IMG/VR virus record: IMGVR_UViG_3300026963_000002
Direction: 5' to 3' (one strand)
Origin: an uncultured virus (IMG/VR IMGVR_UViG_3300026963_000002)
Lineage: Duplodnaviria > Heunggongvirae > Uroviricota > Caudoviricetes > Thumleimavirales > Hafunaviridae
DNA: 64,000 nucleotides
Shown: piece by piece, positions 52-35,537 of the stretch
Numbering within the stretch: position 1 is the stretch's first letter
Layout: each line of letters begins with the position of its first letter
The notes under the pieces: model-generated
What the model was told of the DNA's origin: nothing
What the model saw: only the letters and a program-made list of their open reading frames with translations
Databases searched by the model: none
Program-made: the position numbers and the translations under genes

Positions 52-123
52 GCCTGGGTAGCTTAGCGGTAAAGCGCGTCCTTGGTAAGGACGAGACCGC
101 GGGTTCAAATCCCGCCTCAGGCT
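52..123 (+). tRNA. tRNA-Thr(GGT); probable integration site (attL)
   Basis: Cloverleaf GCCTGGG/CTCAGGC acceptor, GCTT/AAGC D stem, CGTCC-TTGGTAA-GGACG anticodon arm, GCGGG-TTCAAAT-CCCGC T arm; immediately upstream of an integrase. Confidence 0.95.
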
Positions 124-306
124 TTCACGGGCTACACGGCCTGTATTCCCACTTTGCGTGCTTCTTGGGAGCGAATCAATGTACCCCAAGAAAGCACTCT
201 ACCCACAAACGGCCACCCCCGCGCCGTCTTGCGATTCCGAGAACTGTCAGGACACTATAAACTCAGAACCCCATCAGCGGTGTTCCTCGCGCGTGGTGAT
301 AGGCCG

Positions 307-1500
307 ATGAACCGCGACGACCCCCTCGAAGGGATGGAAATGAGCGCGGCATCCGAGGATATACCACCCGCGCCCGAACCCATCGAGTTCGGCTTCCCCC
401 TCGTGAGCAAACGCTCGCGCGAAGACCTCGCGGAGTTCGGACTCAACATGGTTCAGGACTACCACGACTTCAAGAAGGACGTGCTGACGTGGCTCGGCAA
501 CTACGGGAAAAACCCCGACAAGCACGAGGGGCTGGCCCCTACCACGCTTGAGAGTACCCACTACAAGCTCGAAACCGTCTTCCGCTGGCTATGGAAGTAC
601 GAGGGCCAATACACCACGACGTTCACGCCTGAACACGCGGACAAGTTCATCACCATCCTGAATCAGGCCGACTCGATGATTGACAGCACCGTACTCCACC
701 ACGCGAAGGACATCAAGCGGTACTTCCGCTTCTGCAACCACGCACGCGGGAAGGAGTACGAGTGGGAACTCGATCTCGAACTCTCCGCGAGCAACGGCGA
801 CGAACGAGAGTACCTACGTCGCGCCGCGTTCGAGCCGCTGTATCAGGCCGCGCTCCAACATTCGTCAGTCAAGAGCTACTACTCCTGCTCACCGGAGGAA
901 CGCAAGGAGCTGAAGTCCTACGTCTCTCAGCGGCTCCAAGTCCCGAAGTCGAAGGTCGGCCCGGACGAGTTCAAGGAGGCAAACTCGTGGAAGTACCCCT
1001 CGATGATAGCCACGACTCTCGATACCGGGCTTCGACCCATCGAGGTGGGACGCGCCAAGGTGTCTTGGGTGAACCTCGAAGACAACGAGCTGAACATCCC
1101 GAAGACAGAATCCACGAAGAACGAGGGCCATTGGAATTGCGCTATCCAGAACCGGACGGCGAAGGCGCTCGAACGCTGGATAGACGAGCGGAGTACGATG
1201 GAGAAGTACGACGGTCGGGACGAACTATGGCTCACGCAGAAGGCGAAGCCGTACAACTCCGACTCGTGTAACGGTCTACTTGATCGAATCATCGAGTCGG
1301 GGAACGTCCCGATTCCCGAACACCGCGAGGACGAAATCTCGTGGTACTCCATCCGTCACGGCGTAGCGACGTATTGGGCGAACCACGTCGGCCCGCACCA
1401 CGCGAAAGAACAGCTCCGACACAAGAGCGTCACGACGACGATGAAGTACCTTCACTCGGATTCTGATACCCGAGGGAGCGCCGTCGAACAAATCTGGTAG
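307..1500 (+). CDS. int: Tyrosine recombinase / integrase
   Basis: TGLRPIE, YSIRHG, QLRHKSVTTTMKY catalytic motifs; ORF-track start at 82 overlaps the tRNA, so ATG 307 preferred. Confidence 0.92.
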   Translation: MNRDDPLEGMEMSAASEDIPPAPEPIEFGFPLVSKRSREDLAEFGLNMVQDYHDFKKDVLTWLGNYGKNPDKHEGLAPTTLESTHYKLETVFRWLWKYEGQYTTTFTPEHADKFITILNQADSMIDSTVLHHAKDIKRYFRFCNHARGKEYEWELDLELSASNGDEREYLRRAAFEPLYQAALQHSSVKSYYSCSPEERKELKSYVSQRLQVPKSKVGPDEFKEANSWKYPSMIATTLDTGLRPIEVGRAKVSWVNLEDNELNIPKTESTKNEGHWNCAIQNRTAKALERWIDERSTMEKYDGRDELWLTQKAKPYNSDSCNGLLDRIIESGNVPIPEHREDEISWYSIRHGVATYWANHVGPHHAKEQLRHKSVTTTMKYLHSDSDTRGSAVEQIW

Positions 1501-1605: not shown

Positions 1606-3435
1606 ATGGAGCCGAAGACGATCTCGGATGTTATACCGGAACTAAACAGCACGTATCTGATTCCTGCTATCCAGCGAGAGTTCGTATGGGATACCGACCA
1701 GATTCTCGATCTATTCGACTCGATTCTCCGTGACTACCCCATCGGTTCTCTGCTACTATGGAAAGTCCGAGACGACCGGGCGCAGAGTGAAATCAAATAC
1801 AAGTTCGTCAGCGACTACATCGAGGAACCGAACTACCCCCGAGAGATTGACGATGTAAACCACCACAACCCGAAGTGGAGCGAAGACTTAGATGGGGCGC
1901 TCCCGCCAACGACGAATCTCGTTATCGACGGCCAGCAACGACTGACCGCGCTCAACATCGGACTCAAGGGGAGCTTCTGTGAGCGGAAATTCAATGCCCG
2001 CCGGGATGAGGTCAGTTCGTGGGTTCGCAAGAAACTCTATCTGAACCTTCTCTCGAATCCGAACCGAATCACCGAAGGAATCGGTCGCCGGTATCATCTC
2101 GAATTTAAGAAGCCTCACCCTGAGAACGACTCCGAACACTACTGGTATCCCGTAGGCGAGATACTCCAATACCGCGACGAGAACGACTTTAACAACTATC
2201 TGTTCGAGGTCGAGGACGAGATAGAACAGCACCTAATAGACGAAGACCCCGACCTCAGCGCCGAACGAGTCAGAGAATACAAAAAGTGGGCAAAGCAGAA
2301 TCTCAATAGTCTCTGGACGAACGTTCACGACCGCGATCATCTCAACTTCTTCACCGACGACACCGAAGATCACGACCGCATTTTGGACATATTCATCCGT
2401 ATCAATCAGGGCGGTACACAGCTTCAACACCACGAAATTCTACTATCCCTCGCAACGTCAGAGTGGCAACAGGATGAGCCTTTCATCGTCGCAAGAGAGG
2501 CCGTCCCTAAACTGCGAGATCGTCTGAACCGTGATGTTCCCGGTGGGAACGAACCGTTCACGACAAACTTCGTTCTCCGCGCCCTGCTGACCTGCTCTGG
2601 TATGGAGGTTCAGTATCGCCTCTCGAACTTCAGCGCCGAGAACCTTGAGCGGATGAAAGAGGTTTGGCTAACAGACCGATTCAGGAACAGTCTGGAGGAG
2701 TTCGTGAGTCTGATGCGCGGGTACGACATTACGATCTCGCACGTTCACAGTCCTCTACTCTCGGCCCCTGCCATCTACTTCCTCTACAAGCACGATAGTC
2801 CACCGTTGGGGTGGAATAGTGCCCAAGGTCACGATGCTCGACGGGACGTTCTCTACTGGTTGTGCGCGGCAAAGCTCAAACGACTGTCCCGGCTGTCGTC
2901 CGCCCAAATTGCCGAGGCGGTTCGAGATGAGATAGATAACACAGACGAGGTTCGATTCCCGATAGACCGCATCGACGACCGGCTAAGAACAAGCTACGGA
3001 GAATCCGTCTACCTCTCGAATGATGACATAGACAGCATCTTCGATGAAGCGACGTACAACACCCAACGGGGAGAGTTCCTTCTCCATCTGCTCCGCTTCC
3101 CCGAATCAGCCGACCCCGGCCACAGTTACGAAGCCGATCACATCTTCCCGCAAAGTCAGGTAGAAGACGAGTACCCGGACTTGATGCACCGCGTGGGCAA
3201 CCTCCAATTCCTTCGTGACGACGAGAACCTGTCCAAACACAGTAGCGACTTCGCTAATTGGCTTACTTCACAGACCGAGGAATACAAGGAGAGACACTAT
3301 ATACCGGAGTCGGAAGATGGGTCGCTATACGAATTGGGGAACTTCCCCGAGTTCGTGGAACAGCGCGAACAATTGATTCGTGAACATCTGCTTGAGGTCT
3401 GTGACGAACTACGCGAAGCACACGAAACGAATTAA
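1606..3435 (+). CDS. GmrSD-like (DUF262 + DUF1524 HNH) restriction/defence protein
   Basis: IPAIQREFVW, PIGSLLLW, IDGQQRLT, FIRINQGG; C-terminal EADHIFPQ...GNLQFL...N. Confidence 0.85.
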   Translation: MEPKTISDVIPELNSTYLIPAIQREFVWDTDQILDLFDSILRDYPIGSLLLWKVRDDRAQSEIKYKFVSDYIEEPNYPREIDDVNHHNPKWSEDLDGALPPTTNLVIDGQQRLTALNIGLKGSFCERKFNARRDEVSSWVRKKLYLNLLSNPNRITEGIGRRYHLEFKKPHPENDSEHYWYPVGEILQYRDENDFNNYLFEVEDEIEQHLIDEDPDLSAERVREYKKWAKQNLNSLWTNVHDRDHLNFFTDDTEDHDRILDIFIRINQGGTQLQHHEILLSLATSEWQQDEPFIVAREAVPKLRDRLNRDVPGGNEPFTTNFVLRALLTCSGMEVQYRLSNFSAENLERMKEVWLTDRFRNSLEEFVSLMRGYDITISHVHSPLLSAPAIYFLYKHDSPPLGWNSAQGHDARRDVLYWLCAAKLKRLSRLSSAQIAEAVRDEIDNTDEVRFPIDRIDDRLRTSYGESVYLSNDDIDSIFDEATYNTQRGEFLLHLLRFPESADPGHSYEADHIFPQSQVEDEYPDLMHRVGNLQFLRDDENLSKHSSDFANWLTSQTEEYKERHYIPESEDGSLYELGNFPEFVEQREQLIREHLLEVCDELREAHETN

Positions 3436-18988: not shown

Positions 18989-19034
18989 TTGTATGAGTTA
19001 ACGTTGGCCGTTCGAGTCTTTACGCCAAGAGTGT

Positions 19035-19982
19035 CTACATCCGGCGCTCGATCTCGCCAATCACCGCATCGAGGTCGTACTCGGCGTCACCAACCTCACC
19101 GTCGACGAGCTGTTCGACGTTCTCCGGCGTCGTCTCACCCGTGTTTGCCATGAAGTCGATGATCTGGTCAGCGGCCTGCGGGACACCCTCGGGAAGCTCC
19201 TCGTCGGTGGCGTCACCGCCGCCGAGTGAACCACCCGAGGACTCCTCGGCGTCGTCGTCCGACGAGCCACCGCCGTTGTTGGCGATAGTGATACCGGCGA
19301 ACGTCTCGGCGTCGAGAACCTTCGCGTCCGTGTATTCCACGTAGTCGTCCTCGCTCTCCGCGTCGTCGGGGAGGAAGCCGTCCTTGTAGTAGGAGAGGAT
19401 GATGCGCCGCCCTTCGAGGTCGTCGCGCAGTTCGATGGCGTCCTCGTTCAGCCAGTTGTAGTTGTCGTCCTTGTCGTCAACCACGTCGTGACCAGCGGGC
19501 GTGATGACCTTGGCGAAGGTGCGGTTCTTCGTCCCGTTCGAGAGCCACAGCGTGCAGTTGCCGAGGCTCACCGGGTCGTCGCCCTCACGCACAGCCTCCT
19601 GAAGCTTGTACGTGAAGTTGTTGCTACCGAACTGCTCGTTGTGTCGGGAGGGAACTTCGTCAGCGCCCACATCCTCGGTGGGAGCGCCGTTGTCGTCGGT
19701 GGCGAACCACGTATCCCACCCGAACACTTTGAGGGTGTCGTCGGAATCGTCGCCCGGCGACCGCTCCATCACGATGCCGTCGATCACCTTCACGTCGTCG
19801 GCGTCCACGATGAGGGACTGACCGTAAGACGACCCGGTGTATTCACCGAGCCGCGAGATCGAGAACTCGATGAAGGCGTAGTTGTTCATCTTCAGGGAGA
19901 TACGCTCCTCGAAGTCGCCGTCCGCGCCGCTCTGGTTGTTGGTGTTGCCGCCGCTGTTGTAGTCGGTGGAGAACAGGCTCAT
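19035..19982 (-). CDS. Highly acidic protein, possible ssDNA-binding protein
   Basis: Strong C/G-ending codon use; position before helicase/primase; function inferred only. Confidence 0.6.
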   Translation of the reverse strand: MSLFSTDYNSGGNTNNQSGADGDFEERISLKMNNYAFIEFSISRLGEYTGSSYGQSLIVDADDVKVIDGIVMERSPGDDSDDTLKVFGWDTWFATDDNGAPTEDVGADEVPSRHNEQFGSNNFTYKLQEAVREGDDPVSLGNCTLWLSNGTKNRTFAKVITPAGHDVVDDKDDNYNWLNEDAIELRDDLEGRRIILSYYKDGFLPDDAESEDDYVEYTDAKVLDAETFAGITIANNGGGSSDDDAEESSGGSLGGGDATDEELPEGVPQAADQIIDFMANTGETTPENVEQLVDGEVGDAEYDLDAVIGEIERRM

Positions 19983-20062
19983 TATTGCTGTATAGGTTTC
20001 TCTGGTTTGCTCGTCAGTCGGTTCAGCTCAGGCTACGACATTGTGTTTGCGTCGTAGCGAAA

Positions 20063-20135
20063 CGCCGAAGGCAGGACTCGAACCTGCAACCTACGGAGTA
20101 ACAATCCGTCGCACTACCAGTTGTGCTACCTCGGC
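20063..20135 (-). tRNA. tRNA-Asn(GTT), virus-encoded
   Basis: GCCGAGG/CTTCGGC acceptor, GCAC/GTGC D stem, ACGGA-TTGTTAC-TCCGT, GCAGG-TTCGAGT-CCTGC. Confidence 0.93.
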
Positions 20136-20283
20136 AAGAGAAAATGAGGGGCGGGTGCTTGTCCTCACTCTATTAGAGGTGGGACTAAGACTTAAAGATG
20201 CCTATATGATTCTTGGAAGTCGTCGGGAGGGATACCCCACTCGATGAGATTAATAGCAAGTAGAGAACTCGAAGGGTCGTCGA

Positions 20284-20706
20284 TCACTCCGCCGCCTCCG
20301 AGAGTGCGTCGAAGTTCGGAACGACCGTACCATTCACGCGCTCGCCGGGAACGCTCTGCCCGGACAGCTCGAACACGTCGGCCACCTTCTCGATGCCGAA
20401 CGCATCCAGCAGGTCGAAGAACTCAGCCGCCGCGTCCTCGATGCCATCGGGGAGATCGAACTCCAAGTTAGCCGGGTCGGGGCCGTTCGCCGTGTACGTG
20501 GGAATCACCACGTAGAGGTCTTCGGTCAGCTCGCCCCGGTCGATGAGTCTCGGCTCACCAAACTCGATCTGTACCTCGAAGCCGGAGTCCGTTCGCTCAG
20601 CGATTGCGTTGAAGACCGCATCAGCGCCACCGAGGTCGAGGTAGTCGAGGGGGTCGTCGTCGTCGTTACTTCGTCGGAACAGTAGGTTTCGGATGAATCC
20701 AAACAT
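20284..20706 (-). CDS. Hypothetical protein
   Basis: Acidic ORF, good codon use. Confidence 0.7.
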   Translation of the reverse strand: MFGFIRNLLFRRSNDDDDPLDYLDLGGADAVFNAIAERTDSGFEVQIEFGEPRLIDRGELTEDLYVVIPTYTANGPDPANLEFDLPDGIEDAAAEFFDLLDAFGIEKVADVFELSGQSVPGERVNGTVVPNFDALSEAAE

Positions 20707-20788
20707 AGCGTCTCTCTGGTTCCAGCAGTTAGCCGCCGCTGGCGCGTCTCAAGGTAGCGATACAGAATCCCCTATGACCAAAGGGGAA

Positions 20789-20868
20789 GCGACCGGCGGG
20801 AATTGAACCACACCTTGACCCCGCCCACGCCCGTCGAGGGGCATGGTCACGGGGCCACCATTGGTCGC
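20789..20868 (-). ncRNA. tRNA-like element with long internal arm
   Basis: GCGACC/GGTCGC stem stacked on GGTG[T]GG-TTCAATT-CCCGCC T arm. Confidence 0.6.
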
Positions 20869-20889
20869 AAGATCAGCGATACACCGCAT

Positions 20890-20936
20890 CGAGTTGGGAG
20901 GAATCGAACCATCCCTCTATGCGTACCAGCAACTCG
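20890..20936 (-). ncRNA. Mini-tRNA element
   Basis: CGAGTTG/CAACTCG stem plus GGA[T]GG-TTCGATT-CCTCC T arm, linker with TGGTA. Confidence 0.6.
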
Positions 20937-21134
20937 GAAAAGCCACCGTAGCGGTGGCTGGATACCAACGAGTCAAACCATTACAGGATTCAGCCAAGCA
21001 AAGCAGTCGAGGGGGCCGCCGCGACCTCCTCACTCTATTAGACGCGGTTCTATGACTTAAAGATTCCTCTTTGAGTCTTATCCCCTCGCGCGGGCATAGC
21101 AAAGACTTAATAGACAGACTTCTTCTTTGGAGGT

Positions 21135-21686
21135 ATGGCTAAGACGAAACACAAGAACGAAGAAAAAGTCGTCAAGTGTCCCGTGGAGGGGTGCGACCAC
21201 GAGGGCCTGTCCCGAGGTATGCACCTTCACGTTCGTCAATCGAGCGGCAACGGACACGGCCCTAACGGGGATGTTCCCGACGGCTTAGATTTTAGTAATC
21301 TGGAAGTTGTGGGTACAAAGGAAGTTGAAATGGATTACCCGTCTGAACGTAAAGGAGAAGACGTAGCCCGTCTGTGTCCTTTCTGTCGTCGCCCGTTCAA
21401 CGGGTATCAAGGGGTAATGATTCACCTTGGGCAGATTCAGGGCAAGGAGAATCACCCCGAAGACGCGGCTGATATGGTCGATAAGGAAGATTGCCCGGTT
21501 GCTCACGTCGATGAGAACCGGAACGTCATCGAGGTCGTGGAGCAGGGCGACCCCGACCTGATGCCGTCCACGGAAGAACGGCGGGACGGCTCCGTGCCGA
21601 GAGCTGACGTGATTGCCTACATCGAGTGGGCTGAATCCAACGATCAGCTCACGGCGGCGAACAAGGCACGAGAGATGCTACTCTAA
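21135..21686 (+). CDS. Double Zn-finger protein
   Basis: CPVEGC...H...H and CPFC...H...H; AAAGACTTAA promoter at 21101 and GGAGGT SD. Confidence 0.75.
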   Translation: MAKTKHKNEEKVVKCPVEGCDHEGLSRGMHLHVRQSSGNGHGPNGDVPDGLDFSNLEVVGTKEVEMDYPSERKGEDVARLCPFCRRPFNGYQGVMIHLGQIQGKENHPEDAADMVDKEDCPVAHVDENRNVIEVVEQGDPDLMPSTEERRDGSVPRADVIAYIEWAESNDQLTAANKAREMLL

Positions 21687-22168
21687 GTCTCGATTTCGTC
21701 ACGCCACTTATTCGAGAAGAACGACGTTTCGTACTTCCACCGATTGATGGATGGGTCGTTGCGGTACATCTCGTTCATCGACTTCACGATCTCGTAGAAG
21801 CCCTGCTTCGAGTGGTGCTTTCCTTCGGCTACCGGCATGACTATCTCACCCATGAAGATGCCCAATAGCTCGTTCTTCTGGATGATGTAGGGAGCCAGCG
21901 GGCTGAAGAACTTATCGAGGTCTTCAGCGCCCGACACCACGAACGACATCGTAGATTGCAGGTCTTTGATTTCCCACCCGACGCTCTGCTCCGAGCAGTA
22001 TTCCTCAAGCATCCCGAACACGACCGTCTCCGGGTCGCTCCGGTTCATCTTGAACACCGGCTTCATCGTGTAGCCGGTCTTGTATTCGTCGTCTTCCTCT
22101 ATCTCAACCCGGAAGCGGCCAATCGAATCGACCACTCCCGAGAGATACGCTACGTCGTCCTCTTTCAT
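21683..22168 (-). CDS. Free-standing LAGLIDADG-type endonuclease
   Basis: AYLSGVVDSIGRF; PYIIQK-type C-terminal motif. Confidence 0.75.
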   Translation of the reverse strand: MKEDDVAYLSGVVDSIGRFRVEIEEDDEYKTGYTMKPVFKMNRSDPETVVFGMLEEYCSEQSVGWEIKDLQSTMSFVVSGAEDLDKFFSPLAPYIIQKNELLGIFMGEIVMPVAEGKHHSKQGFYEIVKSMNEMYRNDPSINRWKYETSFFSNKWRDEIET

Positions 22169-22441
22169 ACCACCCAGTTTCGGGGTGGCGTGTTAAGTTA
22201 TTCATTGTTCATCAATCTAAAGACTTAGAAACGGTATCTTTAAGTCCTTAGTTCCCGTCTATTAGAGTGAGGAGTTCTTCCGAACGGTTCTACTACACAG
22301 TATAGTACCTACTCTATTCTAACTACTCTGATAACACTCTGTTAGATAAAGAGACTCGATGTAGTGAACTACTCTTAGTAATACACTTAGTTATACTGTT
22401 AGGTCAGCTACGGGGGAGAACTCTACCTAAGATGATATTCT

Positions 22442-22921
22442 ATGGAATCTCCCAAAGAGAAGCACCCACCTGAAACAATCACTCCCGACACAGAGAACGC
22501 AACGTACTTCGACCCGAACGAACGGAACAGCAATCCGAGCAAATTCCGGCGGCTAATGCTCTACAACCGTGGAACGTGGAAAGACCGCCGAGAAGAAAAC
22601 AAGAAGGTCACTCATCGACAGGACAACCTCGCAATTCTGGACTCTCTTGCTGGTCAGCTCGATCTCACTCGCTTCCAGAAGGAGAAGGCTCGTCGAGTCT
22701 TCGATGATCTGGAATTGGGTAAACTCGGCAAGTCAGTATCGCTCGTCGCTTTCGGCGTTTGTACGCTGGTTGCCAACGACGACGTTCCCAACGGAACCCG
22801 CTACTGGCCCACATCCAACGACACCTGCTCGTTGTTCGAGTCGATTGCTGACGACCTCGGTTTCACCGAGAACCAGCAACTCAGCATCATTCTCACCATC
22901 GACCACCGGAGGGTCGAATGA
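22442..22921 (+). CDS. Possible TFB/cyclin-fold transcription factor
   Basis: LDSLAGQLDL...KEKARRVF...GKSVSLVAFGVC resembles a TFB cyclin repeat. Confidence 0.5.
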   Translation: MESPKEKHPPETITPDTENATYFDPNERNSNPSKFRRLMLYNRGTWKDRREENKKVTHRQDNLAILDSLAGQLDLTRFQKEKARRVFDDLELGKLGKSVSLVAFGVCTLVANDDVPNGTRYWPTSNDTCSLFESIADDLGFTENQQLSIILTIDHRRVE

Positions 22922-23382
22922 GCGAGTTCACCATCCTCCGAGATACCCGAGAACACGAAGGCCACGGGTATTGGTTCGAGAATTATCCCGTTAGGGTGAA
23001 GGAGAAGAAGCTCCGCACCGGAGACTACGCCGTAGAGGAACCGGGTTACTACGGCAAGCACGGAACCTACGTCCCGCCGTTCGCAGTTGAACGGAAGGCG
23101 AAGGGAGACTTCCTTAACTCCATCACCCACGAACGAGATCGCTTCGAGCGAGAACTACAACGAGCGGATGAATGGGACGCACCGATGCCGGTCGTTGTTG
23201 AAGCCCCGTGGCTCGATTTCACGCAGGGCAACTACTGGCGGAACATCAATCCCAACTCGATCATTGGGACAGTCGAAAAGTGGCCGGGCTACTACAATGT
23301 TGACTTCTTCTTCAAGCCAACAGAATCTGACGCAGAGAAGTTCACCTACGATTTCCTCAAGTGGTGGAACAACCGTGAGTAA
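22918..23382 (+). CDS. ERCC4 (XPF/Mus81) nuclease
   Basis: DTRE, GDY, VERK. Confidence 0.85.
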   Translation: MSEFTILRDTREHEGHGYWFENYPVRVKEKKLRTGDYAVEEPGYYGKHGTYVPPFAVERKAKGDFLNSITHERDRFERELQRADEWDAPMPVVVEAPWLDFTQGNYWRNINPNSIIGTVEKWPGYYNVDFFFKPTESDAEKFTYDFLKWWNNRE

Positions 23383-26439: not shown

Positions 26440-28236
26440 TTATCGCCACGGCGCGGCGTCTTCGTTCTCCCAATGCTCCGGCGGTTCATCTCGAATCGCC
26501 TCGGTGAACCACTCCGGCGGCTTCGTCCGGTTCATCAGCTTGTTGAACGCACCGTCGATGACGTAGTACGACGCGGCTTCACTCTCCTCCGGGCCACGGA
26601 CGGCTCGCCCCACGGACTGCTGAACGTCCAGCGAAGCCGACTCCATGTACCAGTCCCAGTCGTTCCGCTCATCGAGCAGGTAGGACACCCTGCTGTCACC
26701 GAGGTACGGGTAGGGAACCTTCAGGAGAACCTGCCAGCGGCAACGGTCGCCGTAGAGGTCAACACCCTCCATCATCGACGGGGAGATGAGAATGTCCTTG
26801 TCGGACTGAACCCACTCCTCGATCACCAAGTCCTTCTCCTTCTCTTGGTCTTGGACGATAACGTTCTCCCGACCGAGGGAGTCAGCGAGCTTTTCGGCCC
26901 GCTTGTAGGAGTTGGTGTGAATCAGGCCGTTCTCCCCTTCGTGATGGCTGTGAATCTCTCGAATCGTCCGAATCACCTGATTCCAGTTGCGATCTTCGCC
27001 GTCGCCGCTCATCGAGCCGACGATGGTGTTCGTGTGAATCAGTCGGTGTTCCTCGGGGAACGGCATCGGACGGCCAATCAGCTTCGTGGAACCTTCGAGG
27101 CCGAGGCGGTCGGCCCAATCAGCGATTTTCTCTCGGTACGGAATCGTCGCGGAGGAAATCACTCGCTTCTTCCCCCGGCTCCAGATGAACCGTTCGAGGA
27201 ACTTGTCCACGTCCACCGGGCTAATGACCATCTTCTTCTGGTCGGACTTCCCGAACTCGCTCACCGTCACCGTCCACGGGCGTCCCTCCTTCACTTCCCG
27301 GTGGCAGTATTCGGCCTTCTTGATGAAGTCCTTACATTGGTCAACCTCAGCCTGCTTGTTCGGGTCTTCATCGTGGCGGTCTACGTAGTTTGTCGCCCGG
27401 TCGTAGAGGCTGTTGAGGATGTGGGTAACGTCCTCGAAGCGTTCGTAGTCCCACCGAATCCGGTCGCCCGTGTTCCGGTAGACCTCGTTCGGGAGAACCC
27501 ACGGGGAGATAGTGAACCCGGCGAACAGGGACGCCACTTGGCTTTCGAGGCCGTGGCCTTCGTCAACGATAACGAGATCGCGGTCGTCGAAGGAAATCTG
27601 CTCGTCCTCGAACCCGTCCGTCATTAGGTAGGTCGGGATGTAGTTGTCAACCACCAGCATAGCGAACGTGAGAGCCGCTATGTCGGCGTCCATCGCTCGG
27701 GCCTTTGCTCGCCAGTAGGTACACCCGGCGATTGTCCGGCAGGACGCATCCTCTGTCTCGTTCGGGACGTTACAATCCTTACAGTTCATGTCGCTGGCCC
27801 CGCAGATGTAGTCCTGCCGGGACTTCAGCATCGTCACGTACTCCTGAAGGTCAACGTCCTCCGCGAGCTGATTACGGAGTTGCTTCTGAGGGGTGGTGTA
27901 GAAGGACTTGCCCGACTCGATGCCGTGAAGCTTGTAGTTGAAATGGTCTTCGAGCCGCGACTTGTTCTTGGCGAGGTGCTTGAACACCCGACCGAGAGTG
28001 ACGTTCACCGGAGACTTCCCAATCCCCGTGGGGCCGTCGATCACGACGTTCGTGTGCCCCTCGATGAACAGGGCTTCGAGCGTCCCGTGGAGGATTTCGT
28101 CTTGGTAGTCCCGGTAGCCGGGGAACGGGAATAGATCGTCCGAGAGGTTGAACAGGTACTCCCGAAGCCCATCTCTGTTCCTCGAATAGTTCGCTAACGG
28201 TTCGACTCGTTGACTCTGGATTGTTTTGGTTGACAT
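26440..28236 (-). CDS. DinG/XPD-family SF2 helicase
   Basis: GPTGIGKS, Cys cluster, VDEGH, SAT, EGVD, QQSVGRAVR. Confidence 0.9.
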   Translation of the reverse strand: MSTKTIQSQRVEPLANYSRNRDGLREYLFNLSDDLFPFPGYRDYQDEILHGTLEALFIEGHTNVVIDGPTGIGKSPVNVTLGRVFKHLAKNKSRLEDHFNYKLHGIESGKSFYTTPQKQLRNQLAEDVDLQEYVTMLKSRQDYICGASDMNCKDCNVPNETEDASCRTIAGCTYWRAKARAMDADIAALTFAMLVVDNYIPTYLMTDGFEDEQISFDDRDLVIVDEGHGLESQVASLFAGFTISPWVLPNEVYRNTGDRIRWDYERFEDVTHILNSLYDRATNYVDRHDEDPNKQAEVDQCKDFIKKAEYCHREVKEGRPWTVTVSEFGKSDQKKMVISPVDVDKFLERFIWSRGKKRVISSATIPYREKIADWADRLGLEGSTKLIGRPMPFPEEHRLIHTNTIVGSMSGDGEDRNWNQVIRTIREIHSHHEGENGLIHTNSYKRAEKLADSLGRENVIVQDQEKEKDLVIEEWVQSDKDILISPSMMEGVDLYGDRCRWQVLLKVPYPYLGDSRVSYLLDERNDWDWYMESASLDVQQSVGRAVRGPEESEAASYYVIDGAFNKLMNRTKPPEWFTEAIRDEPPEHWENEDAAPWR

Positions 28237-28539
28237 TCTTGCTTGAGTCTAAGACTCAGAGAAGTATCTATAAGTCTTTATCGCTATTGGTCAGCTCGTC
28301 ATAGCCGGGACGACCACCTCCCGACGACGCCCCACCGTAGGGCGTTTCGCCATTACTCTTGCCAGTACCGCCGCTCGATGTTGATTACCTCCGATACATC
28401 ACGGCGGGGCTTCGTCTTTCCACGTCGACGCCAACACGCCTTCCTCCGAAGGGAGTAGAAGTAATCGTAGTCGGCTTGCTCGATCTTCTCAATATCTTCT
28501 TCCATACTACCGGGGTGACACCGCAGGATGTTCGTCGGC

Positions 28540-34358: not shown

Positions 34359-34400
34359 GCTCCGCTACGGGGTCGAACCGTAGTTTTCGCCACTCGGAGC
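34359..34400 (-). ncRNA. Mini-tRNA element
   Basis: GCTCCG-AGTGGCGAAAA-CTACGG-TTCGACC-CCGTAG-CGGAGC. Confidence 0.7.
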
Positions 34401-35468: not shown

Positions 35469-35509
35469 GCCCTTCCGGGGAGTCGAACCCCGGTGTCGCC
35501 ACTAAGGGT
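35469..35509 (-). ncRNA. Mini-tRNA element
   Basis: ACCCTT-AGTGGCGACA-CCGGGG-TTCGACT-CCCCGG-AAGGGC. Confidence 0.65.
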
Positions 35510-35537
35510 TATTGAAGCGTCTTTGAGTCTTTGCGCC

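What the first reader, a model, noticed from the sequence alone, without database searches (positions are those of the whole stretch)
20789..20936. Tandem pair of non-canonical tRNA-like RNAs with a shared bulged T-stem
Seen on the minus strand, just downstream of the class A promoter at 21054: CGAGTTG-CTGGTACGCATAGAG-GGA[T]GG-TTCGATT-CCTCC-CAACTCG (20890-20936), and GCGACC-AATGGTGG-(long CCCCG...CGGGG arm)-GGTG[T]GG-TTCAATT-CCCGCC-GGTCGC (20789-20868). Both give a 12-bp acceptor plus T stack with a bulged T two bases before the T-loop and a TGGT linker, but lack a D stem and a normal anticodon arm. Inference: these are deliberate tRNA mimics, architecturally reminiscent of tmRNA or bacterial Y-RNA tRNA-like domains, rather than decayed tRNAs.
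Basis: partly seen in the sequence, partly recalled or inferred. Interest (0 to 1): 0.72.

Follow-up and report, generated by a model that had tools for sequence, protein, structure and literature searches.

The report
Two tRNA-like RNAs in halovirus
In this virus of salt-loving archaea, two short RNAs that keep only the top half of a tRNA sit in places where related viruses carry real tRNA genes; one was already noted as a broken tRNA, and the other is a well-conserved, unannotated folded RNA built around a hairpin that also occurs between tRNA genes of other salt-lake viruses.

Summary
Both elements are on the minus strand as described, each with a 12-bp acceptor plus T stack, a one-base bulge in the T stem, and no D arm or normal anticodon arm. 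ARAGORN at default settings and Rfam find nothing there.

The window is a Hafunaviridae (HF1/HF2-like) virus, probably integrated.

**Element 1 (20890-20936)** lies in the slot of tRNA-Arg(TCT). It is the "partial tRNA-Arg with a 28-nt deletion" already noted in print (PMC7230728). Evidence that selection maintains it is weak.

**Element 2 (20789-20868)** lies in a slot that holds tRNA-Gly in some relatives.
- It is unannotated in the records examined.
- It occurs in three genera, including a virus with no tRNA hit.
- Its three-arm fold covaries strongly: 99.6% of cells paired, 8 pairs changed on both sides, 0 of 500 shuffles reach this.

The long hairpin of element 2 also occurs free-standing in 17 loci. 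In 13 of them it starts directly at a tRNA's 3' end. No Rfam family matches it.

The tandem arrangement is not designed: a roughly 1.1-kb deletion brought the two elements together in this lineage.

Best reading (about 0.5): host RNase P and tRNase Z cut at these tRNA-like frames, and element 2 yields a discrete hairpin RNA. No RNA data were available to test this. The tmRNA and Y-RNA comparison is not supported.

The parts
21027..21080 (-). Class I intergenic-repeat promoter, homologue of HF2 IR2. The TATA-containing beta motif is at 21054-21063 and the gamma motif at 21033-21044. The inferred transcription start is near G21035.
   Evidence: Aligned with HF2 IR2 and IR3. Three copies of the repeat occur in the near-identical record G001. 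Promoter activity and the start site of this repeat class were shown for HF2 in PMC8707807 (passages). The start site in the window is my inference from their -26 rule.
20941..20959 (-). Leader hairpin (8 bp, 3-nt loop) followed by TTT. It is conserved upstream of both element 1 and the true tRNA-Arg of relatives.
   Evidence: Fold (third sequence); alignments.
20890..20936 (-). Element 1. Acceptor 5' strand 20930-20936, linker 20915-20929, T stem 5' strand with bulge 20909-20914, T loop 20902-20908, T stem 3' strand 20897-20901, acceptor 3' strand 20890-20896. The discriminator A is at 20889.
   Evidence: It occupies the slot of tRNA-Arg(TCT). It is present in 16 of the 17 phage records hit; the 17th is a chance tRNA-Ser match.
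20789..20868 (-). Element 2. Acceptor 5' strand 20863-20868, linker 20857-20862, long arm 20817-20856 (GA bulge, invariant U-G wobble, 6-nt loop), two A's 20815-20816, T arm with bulge 20795-20814, acceptor 3' strand 20789-20794. The discriminator T is at 20788.
   Evidence: covariation; hairpin core covariation; synteny.
20768..20787 (-). Small trailer hairpin after element 2. It is conserved in Haloferacalesvirus relatives but absent in HRTV-25 and HRTV-27.
   Evidence: Terminator-like scan; alignment.
20284..20706 (-). First downstream gene (140 aa, no Pfam family), homologue of the gene that follows element 2 in HF2-like viruses.
   Evidence: synteny.
20062..20136 (-). Canonical tRNA-Asn(GTT) with its own class I repeat promoter upstream.

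Best explanation
Both elements are tRNA-derived 'top halves' (acceptor helix stacked on a T arm) transcribed from the class I repeat promoter at about 21035.

They most likely act like haloarchaeal t-elements. Host RNase P would cut at their 5' end and tRNase Z after the discriminator base. This would trim the long viral transcript and, for element 2, release a discrete, stable RNA of about 80 nt. The working part of that RNA would be the conserved long hairpin (GA bulge, invariant U-G wobble, flanking UGGNG and AA).

In other haloviruses the same hairpin is not framed by its own tRNA-like helix. It is placed between real tRNAs, so the same two enzymes would define its ends. Element 2 is a streamlined fusion of that module with an acceptor and T-arm frame. 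Element 1 is the remnant of a tRNA in the tRNA-Arg slot that kept only the part those enzymes read.

Shown: position, fold, covariation, conservation, synteny, promoter homology. Inferred: transcription in this virus, cutting by RNase P and tRNase Z, release of a small RNA. What the hairpin binds or does is unknown.
For: 1. Geometry. Both elements keep a 12-bp acceptor plus T stack with a canonical T loop and an abutting acceptor 3' strand.

2. Element 2 fold. On 10 distinct 80-nt sequences, 99.6% of 280 cells are paired and 8 pairs change on both sides, reached by 0 of 500 shuffles. Slid partners give at most 48.9% paired. Four different acceptor helices occur, all fully paired, in the window type, HRTV-25, HRTV-27 and L032.

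3. RNA and strand. Many G-U pairs occur, including one U-G in 23 of 23 core sequences. These would be mismatches on the other strand.

4. Hairpin core. On 23 distinct sequences, 99.1% of 345 cells are paired, with 7 pairs and 47 cells changed on both sides; no shuffle of 500 reaches the paired share, the 47 cells or the covariation score, while 59 of 500 reach 7 such pairs.

5. Distribution. A search with a free-standing module hit 45 phage records, all Hafunaviridae by name except unclassified Hardygib1, each with one place. HRTV-27 has no tRNA hit at E up to 1 yet keeps element 2.

6. Two ways of framing. Of 17 free-standing modules, 13 start within 1 nt of the 3' end of a tRNA, and the tRNA identities vary: Gly, Arg, Ser, Leu, Thr and one called Asp. 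Eight are followed by tRNA-Arg(TCT).

7. Slots. Element 1 replaces tRNA-Arg(TCT). Element 2's slot holds tRNA-Gly(TCC) plus the free module in HRTV-10 and HRTV-14.

8. Enzymes. In Haloferax, t-elements are cut by RNase P and tRNase Z and have been used to excise a small RNA (PMC4326828, passages). Archaeal RNase Z cuts pre-tRNAs lacking the D or anticodon arm but needs the acceptor stem (PMC7479834, passages).

9. Processing in HF2. Long HF2 primary transcripts were proposed to be processed into shorter RNAs (PMC8707807, passage). The window also carries a hammerhead ribozyme between genes.
Against: No RNA data bear on it: no sequencing run on record as RNA holds the stretch, so neither expression nor RNA ends are shown.

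Element 1:
- Only 6 distinct sequences are known, with 7 variable sites, and one stem change (A-U to G-U). There is no change on both sides of a pair.
- Its fold is not better than shuffles.
- It is described in print as a partial tRNA.

Element 2 and the hairpin:
- Much of the invariance of the hairpin core follows from the search patterns that I used. The one module found without constraining the hairpin (L072) has a different loop.
- A processing role does not explain why the hairpin's sequence is so conserved.
- In HF2-type viruses a hairpin plus T-run lies directly before element 2, which could end transcription there.
- Two of the 17 free modules have no tRNA beside them.

Whether haloarchaeal RNase P accepts a frame without a D loop, or with a bulged T stem, was not tested.
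Confidence: 0.5

Rival explanations
1. Neutral wreckage. Both elements are leftovers of deletions and cassette exchanges among viral tRNA genes, and they have no function of their own.
For: - Both lie in tRNA slots.
- Element 1 is described as a partial tRNA-Arg with a 28-nt deletion (PMC7230728) and shows no compensatory change.
- Element 2 reads as a chimera of the tRNA-Gly 5' strand, the hairpin module, and the T arm and 3' strand of a third tRNA-like element seen in HRTV-10.
- The tandem arrangement comes from a deletion.
Against: For element 2:
- Four different fully paired acceptor helices occur, and 8 pairs change on both sides.
- The length is exactly 80 nt in all 10 variants.
- It is kept in three genera and in a virus with no tRNA hit.

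For element 1:
- It persists in 13 viruses from several countries.
- At most 2 of its 7 variable sites touch a paired base, and none lies in the T loop.
- The bulged T-arm fold fits all 6 variants.
Confidence: 0.15
2. [quoted passage not shown] Element 2 would be a derivative that swapped self-cleavage for a tRNA-like frame.
For: - Thirteen of 17 free modules begin within 1 nt of a tRNA 3' end. This is the same placement as theta ribozymes (PMC10879173, passages).
- The junction bases are conserved: 5' TGAG in 16 of 17, UGGNG, the GA bulge, AA.
- In 8 loci a pseudoknot forms with four different sequence pairs of 6-8 bp.
- The virus group also carries a hammerhead and an RtcB ligase (PMC7230728 figure legend).
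Against: - No Rfam ribozyme family matches, even at E up to 10 on short inputs.
- My attempt to thread the HDV-like nested fold onto it failed (inference, no tool).
- Eight free modules lack the pseudoknot.
- Element 2 lacks the whole 5' part.
- Abutting a tRNA is equally explained by tRNase Z cutting.
Confidence: 0.12
3. True tRNA mimics that are charged with an amino acid or bind translation or quality-control factors, like viral tRNA-like structures, the tmRNA tRNA-like domain or Y RNA.
For: - Acceptor and T-arm geometry and a canonical T loop.
- Element 1 has C1-G72 and discriminator A, which I recall as tyrosine identity marks in archaea. The viral tRNA-Tyr of HF2 shares them.
Against: - Element 2's acceptor helix and discriminator (T, A or G) vary freely among relatives, which argues against one synthetase identity.
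- No tmRNA or Y-RNA match was found.
- I recall that archaea lack tmRNA.
Confidence: 0.08
4. Not an RNA element. Instead a small antisense gene, as annotated over element 2 in HRTV-25 and HRTV-27, or a DNA-level inverted repeat.
For: - One antisense frame is open across all 10 element 2 variants.
- Hypothetical proteins are annotated there in two records.
Against: - Substitutions are compensatory in helices rather than codon-like.
- G-U pairs make the fold specific to one strand.
- No feature is annotated there in the 32 HF2-like rows listed.
- An open frame of 26 codons in 1 of 6 frames is unremarkable.
Confidence: 0.02

Closest known systems
Haloarchaeal t-elements: the tRNA-like structure upstream of 5S rRNA in Haloferax volcanii, cut by tRNase Z and RNase P (PMC4326828, passages read; Hoelzle 2008 and 2012 known only from its reference list)
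   Same: A tRNA-like fold that is not a tRNA, sits inside a longer transcript of a haloarchaeal system, and has acceptor and T-arm geometry that the two tRNA-end enzymes read. It has been used to excise a small RNA.
   Different: These elements are viral. They lie in former tRNA gene slots and have a bulged T stem. Element 2 carries a conserved 16-bp hairpin of its own. Cutting has not been shown here. I could not read the original t-element papers, so I could not compare the arms.
Partial tRNA-Arg(TCT) of Serpecor1 and HRTV-8 (PMC7230728, passage read)
   Same: Element 1 is this element. It has the same slot and the same roughly 28-nt shortfall, and it is 90-98% identical to copies in 16 records.
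   Different: The paper treats it as a deleted tRNA-Arg. Here the retained parts are only 24 of 47 identical to HF2 tRNA-Arg while the flanks are 75-82% identical. This suggests a replaced cassette rather than a plain deletion of that allele.
Theta (minimal HDV-like) ribozymes next to phage tRNA genes (PMC10879173, passages read)
   Same: A compact structured RNA starting at the 3' end of a viral tRNA. This is true of the free-standing relatives of element 2's hairpin in 13 of 17 loci.
   Different: There is no match to HDV-type families in Rfam and no nested double pseudoknot that I could draw. The hosts are archaeal viruses. Self-cleavage is untested. Element 2 itself has a tRNA-like frame instead.
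tRNA-linked small RNAs of murine gammaherpesvirus 68, where tRNA-like genes are followed by hairpins freed by tRNase Z
   Same: A virus uses a tRNA-like part and host tRNA-end enzymes to make a hairpin RNA.
   Different: That is a eukaryotic system with a microRNA pathway. Here the hairpin is inside the tRNA-like frame or between tRNAs, and its function is unknown.

Membership tests
Canonical tRNA (Rfam RF00005) | The covariance model scores at or above 29 bits. | tested here: not met
   No hit at either element, at gathering threshold or at E up to 10, in the window. Element 2 of HF2, HRTV-25 and HRTV-27 is not among the tRNA hits at E up to 1.
Canonical tRNA (Rfam RF00005) | Cloverleaf with a D arm and a 5-bp anticodon stem closing a 7-nt loop. 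| tested here: not met
   Element 1 has only a 15-nt linker. For element 2 the ARAGORN cloverleaf gives 72.9% paired cells, the D-stem pair 12-25 is broken in 7 of 10 sequences, the T stem is 40% paired, and nothing covaries outside the acceptor stem. The arm's loop has 6 nt.
Canonical tRNA (Rfam RF00005) | Acceptor helix stacked on a T arm, 12 bp in all, with a 7-nt T loop. | tested here: met
   7+5 bp in element 1 and 6+6 bp in element 2, each with a one-base bulge. The loops are TTCGATT and TTCAATT.
tmRNA tRNA-like domain or Y RNA (YrlA) | A match to the family models or a tmRNA gene call. | tested here: not met
   ARAGORN's tmRNA search finds none. The only YrlA match (15.9 bits, E 7) lies on the true tRNA-Asn at 20029-20115.
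Haloarchaeal t-element | A tRNA-like fold with acceptor stem and T arm, embedded in a longer transcript. | tested here: met
   Fold. The elements lie about 100 nt downstream of a class I repeat promoter homologue and upstream of protein genes on the same strand.
Haloarchaeal t-element | Cut by RNase P and tRNase Z. | not testable with these tools
   No RNA data were available. The claim rests on enzyme properties in print.
Deleted tRNA-Arg(TCT) pseudogene (element 1) | Same genomic slot as the intact gene. | tested here: met
   Same leader hairpin upstream and the same sequence downstream.
Deleted tRNA-Arg(TCT) pseudogene (element 1) | The retained parts derive from the tRNA-Arg sequence. | tested here: inconclusive
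   24 of 47 bases are identical to HF2 tRNA-Arg, against 53 of 65 and 15 of 20 in the flanks. No closer tRNA was found in the phage collection.
HDV-like / theta ribozyme (hairpin module) | Starts at a tRNA 3' end. | tested here: met
   13 of 17 free modules do. Two have too little upstream sequence and two have no tRNA. This does not apply to element 2 itself.
HDV-like / theta ribozyme (hairpin module) | Nested double-pseudoknot fold, or a match to the family model. | tested here: not met
   No ribozyme family hit at E up to 10. The single pseudoknot seen has a different topology (my reading).

The most novel reading that the evidence does not exclude
The conserved hairpin with its flanking UGGNG and AA is the core of an undescribed class of small RNA in archaeal viruses. 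Its ends are made by the tRNA-processing machinery in two interchangeable ways: between real tRNAs, or inside its own tRNA-like frame (element 2). The free-standing form, with its 5' hairpin and pseudoknot, may be a new self-cleaving or protein-capturing RNA that acts on host tRNA or RNA-repair pathways.
Probability: 0.3. Interest if true: 0.8.

Novelty: new variant of a known kind. Interest (0 to 1): 0.6.

Why it matters
- Almost nothing is known about non-coding RNAs of archaeal tailed viruses.
- Element 2 is a family-wide, single-copy, strongly covarying RNA. It is unannotated in the records I looked at, including the model viruses HF1 and HF2, and it matches no Rfam family.
- Its hairpin appears with two different solutions for making defined ends. 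That is a natural version of the tRNA-scaffold trick used in the laboratory, and it suggests that haloviruses lean on host RNase P and tRNase Z (and, elsewhere in the genome, a hammerhead) to punctuate long transcripts.
- It gives a concrete small target for Northern blots, end mapping and mutation in a culturable system (HF2 on Halorubrum coriense).
- It also corrects annotations: protein genes are drawn over both elements in several records.

Tried and rejected
- **RNA evidence.** No RNA holder is listed for window 19000-23000. Two runs guessed to be RNA, laid as contigs, cover none of 20228-21139, so this says nothing about expression.
- **Rfam.** Tried at gathering threshold, at E up to 10 on the window region, at E up to 1 on 15 loci, and at E up to 10 on 4 short loci. 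Only tRNAs and chance-level matches came back.
- **ARAGORN with lowered thresholds and introns.** It gives a poor tRNA-Pro(cgg) for element 2 and an 89-nt call with mismatched stems over element 1. The first was rejected by covariation.
- **Intron or bulge-helix-bulge reading of element 2.** The arm has a single 2-3-nt bulge followed by 8 bp, with no second bulge (my reading).
- **K-turn or C/D-box reading of the GA bulge.** The opposite strand lacks the required GA (my reading).
- **Pairing of the module's 5' TGAG with the hairpin loop.** It is possible in most loci but mismatched in the two loci with a CTAGAT loop, and it shows no real covariation.
- **Origin of element 1 from the viral tRNA-Tyr.** It shares only C1-G72, discriminator A and the T loop.
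- **Genome collection scan.** The 4 hits are in bacterial records, lack the module's flanking motifs, and look like chance. No host homologue was found, but this was an exact-pattern scan only.
- **Earlier notes of this scan.** Look-ups by sequence gave nothing.
- **Papers.** Hoelzle 2008 is not held. The HRTV-DL1 infection preprint has nothing on these RNAs. Paper searches listed no paper that describes element 2 or the hairpin module. Supplements of PMC7230728 and PMC8707807 were not opened and may show the region.
- **Search error.** A first relaxed pattern scan failed because I miscounted a spacer. It was corrected.

Full report
**What the window is.** Pfam finds family B DNA polymerase, large terminase, tail sheath and baseplate J proteins. 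A 601-nt query around the finding matches 45 phage records at 80-95% identity. All are haloarchaeal tailed viruses of the HF1/HF2 group, family Hafunaviridae. A complete tRNA-Thr at 52-123 lies beside an integrase. Metagenome contigs of 193 kb and 161 kb hold the two elements in identical form. The window is therefore probably an integrated copy. All features below are on the minus strand.

**The observation.**
- Element 1 (20890-20936, 47 nt) has a 7-bp acceptor helix, a 15-nt linker and a 5-bp T stem with one bulged base closing TTCGATT.
- Element 2 (20789-20868, 80 nt) has a 6-bp acceptor helix, a 6-nt linker, a 16-bp arm with a GA bulge and a 6-nt loop, two A's, and a 6-bp T stem with one bulged base closing TTCAATT.
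- Element 2 folds far better than shuffles (z -3.77, 0 of 200). Element 1 does not (z -1.43, 21 of 200).
- ARAGORN at default settings and Rfam (gathering threshold, and E up to 10) see neither element. At a lowered threshold ARAGORN draws element 2 as a poor tRNA-Pro(cgg).
- A descriptor scan of my own for an acceptor plus T-arm stack finds 7 sites in the window against 0.54 in block shuffles. These include the two tRNAs and the two elements.

**The promoter.** Window 21027-21080 aligns with HF2 intergenic repeat IR2 and with the repeat before tRNA-Asn. Class I repeats of HF2 drive a reporter gene and start transcription at a G in their gamma motif, with the TATA box at -26 (PMC8707807, passages). 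By that rule the start here is near 21035, about 100 nt before element 1. This is my inference.

**Both elements sit in tRNA slots.** In HF2, HRTV-5, HRTV-21, Hardygib1 and HRTV-10 the order is:
1. promoter repeat
2. leader hairpin
3. tRNA-Arg(TCT)
4. prohibitin-family (SPFH) gene
5. a 135-nt gene
6. an unannotated gap
7. three small genes
8. promoter repeat
9. tRNA-Asn

- Element 1 lies exactly where tRNA-Arg lies, with the same leader hairpin before it and the same sequence after it.
- Element 2 lies in the unannotated gap. In HRTV-10 and HRTV-14 that gap holds a normal tRNA-Gly(TCC) followed by more structured sequence.
- In the window the SPFH and 135-nt genes are missing, so the two elements are 21 nt apart. 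The 'tandem pair' is a result of that deletion and is seen only in contigs identical to the window.

**Element 1.** It occurs in 16 phage records representing 13 viruses, as 6 distinct sequences. It is the 'partial tRNA-Arg(TCT) ... with a 28 nt deletion' reported for Serpecor1 and HRTV-8 (PMC7230728, passage).
- It is not a plain deletion of the HF2-type gene. The retained parts are 24 of 47 identical, while the flanks are 53 of 65 and 15 of 20 identical.
- Seven of its 47 positions vary. One is in the acceptor stem (A-U to G-U), four are in the linker, and two are at the bulge.
- The unbulged MFE stem of the window copy cannot form in 4 of the 6 variants. A T stem with one bulged base fits all six, although the bulge moves by one position.
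- This is suggestive, not proof, of constraint. There is no change on both sides of any pair.
- Several records annotate a protein start or an antisense gene across it.

**Element 2.** Ten distinct sequences were found, all exactly 80 nt.
- Six come from Haloferacalesvirus isolates or the window. One each comes from HRTV-25 (Laminvirus) and HRTV-27 (Minorvirus). Two come from uncultured contigs.
- On the three-arm fold, 99.6% of 280 cells pair and 8 pairs change on both sides (0 of 500 shuffles). Slid partners pair in at most 48.9% of cells.
- Four different acceptor helices occur, all fully Watson-Crick. The bulged base is U, C or A, and the discriminator is T, A or G.
- The ARAGORN cloverleaf reaches 72.9% on the same alignment. 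Its D-stem pair 12-25 is broken in 7 of 10 sequences, and its T stem pairs in only 40% of cells.
- The tRNA model does not score element 2 at E up to 1 in HF2, HRTV-25 or HRTV-27. HRTV-27 has no tRNA hit at all yet keeps element 2 behind a TATA-like motif.
- No feature is annotated over it in 32 listed rows. In HRTV-25 and HRTV-27 a small antisense 'hypothetical protein' covers it.

**The hairpin is a module found elsewhere.** Pattern scans found the same arm in 17 loci where it is not framed by a tRNA-like helix: HRTV-10, HRTV-14 and 15 uncultured contigs.
- The module there starts with TGAG (CGAG once), then a small hairpin, then UGGAG (or a close variant), then the long arm, then AA.
- In 8 loci the small hairpin's loop pairs with the tail in a 6-8-bp pseudoknot, with four different sequence pairs. 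In 1000 shuffles of each tail, 2 to 96 reached the observed run length.
- In 8 loci the small hairpin's loop is AAGGAAAA and no pseudoknot forms. The 17th locus, L072, has the same loop by eye but was not in that script.
- In 13 of 17 loci the module starts within 1 nt of a tRNA's 3' end. The tRNAs are Gly twice, Arg twice, Ser, Thr twice, Leu five times, and one called Asp. Two loci have too little upstream sequence and two have no tRNA.
- Eight modules are followed by tRNA-Arg(TCT).
- Across 23 distinct 46-nt cores of both types, 99.1% of 345 cells pair, with 7 pairs and 47 cells changed on both sides; 0 of 500 shuffles reach the paired share, the changed cells or the covariation score (59 of 500 reach 7 pairs). 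One U-G pair is present in all 23.
- These G-U pairs show that the fold belongs to RNA of this strand.
- Caution: several 'invariant' bases were fixed by my search patterns. The one module found without constraining the hairpin (L072) has a different loop and a G-U in place of a G-C.
- A search with a free-standing module hit 45 phage records, all Hafunaviridae by name apart from unclassified Hardygib1, each with one place.
- No Rfam family matches the module.
- The paper searches I ran listed no paper that describes it.

**How element 2 arose (inference).** Its first six bases and upstream flank equal those of the tRNA-Gly of HRTV-10. Its middle is the hairpin module without the small hairpin and pseudoknot. 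Its T arm, 3' strand and downstream flank match a third tRNA-like element that follows the module in HRTV-10 and HRTV-14. Two deletions would make element 2 from that arrangement. The later covariation of its acceptor helix shows that the fused form was kept under selection.

**Mechanism.** The common denominator of the two contexts is that tRNA-end enzymes would give the hairpin defined ends.
- Free-standing module: tRNase Z at the upstream tRNA and RNase P at the downstream one.
- Element 2: RNase P and tRNase Z at its own frame.

Supporting statements in print:
- Haloferax t-elements are cut by both enzymes and can release an engineered small RNA (PMC4326828, passages).
- Archaeal RNase Z accepts pre-tRNAs without D or anticodon arms but needs the acceptor stem (PMC7479834, passages).
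- HF2 makes very long transcripts that are thought to be processed (PMC8707807, passage).
- The window carries a type II hammerhead between genes.

Element 1 fits as the processing-competent remnant of a tRNA in the leader of the next gene. None of this is shown by RNA data. The function of the hairpin itself remains open. A role as a protein-binding RNA or as a ribozyme-derived element are the bolder options.

**Comparison and verdict.** Neither element is a tRNA, a tmRNA domain or a Y RNA by any test run. They work most like t-elements. Element 1 is already in print as a partial tRNA. For element 2 and its hairpin module, Rfam and the paper searches I ran turned up no description. I treat that as a parallel, not as support.

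Noticed in passing
window 28286-28352 (-): Type II hammerhead ribozyme (49.4 bits against a gathering score of 37) in the gap upstream of the helicase gene at 26440-28236. A conserved hammerhead in HF1-group viruses is mentioned in PMC7230728.
   Followed up: partly
window 52-123 (+) and 82-1500 (+): A full-length tRNA-Thr(GGT) lies next to a tyrosine integrase. Contigs of 193 kb and 161 kb hold the two elements in identical form. This points to an integrated provirus with the tRNA as the attachment site.
   Followed up: partly
window 34359-34400 (-) and about 35477-35510 (-): Two paralogous 5'-leader hairpins have a TTCGAC(C/T) loop. The first forms a 42-nt acceptor-plus-T-like minihelix (6+6 bp). 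Each is followed by a second hairpin and GTGACACC before the ATG. The region is conserved in 41 phage records.
   Followed up: partly
L008 about 2452-2522 (HRTV-10); the same in HRTV-14 and HRTV-8: A third tRNA-like element after the hairpin module. It has a 7-bp acceptor helix, a perfect T arm and one central hairpin. It gives only a weak tRNA-Sec match (23 bits, E 0.12) and lies under an annotated protein gene.
   Followed up: partly
L001 1671-2738 (HRTV-14); L050, L053; L004 1494-1658; L007 1442-1645: Likely annotation errors. The SPFH gene is extended upstream through the promoter repeat and element 1, and small antisense 'hypothetical proteins' are drawn over element 1 or element 2.
   Followed up: partly
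L004 1075-1143 (HRTV-25): An unannotated tRNA (41.6 bits; the anticodon loop reads GTA, so Tyr) lies under an annotated antisense gene. A weak 19.6-bit tRNA-like piece lies at 1306-1370.
   Followed up: no
window 20809-20950: One salt-mine metagenome contig replaces this stretch (element 1 and the 5' part of element 2) with 100 other letters, so natural variants of the locus exist. Another contig carries C to T in element 1's linker (20923).
   Followed up: no
window 1606-3435 (+): A GmrSD-type restriction endonuclease gene (N-terminal domain E 2.5e-31) lies near the integrase end of the element.
   Followed up: no
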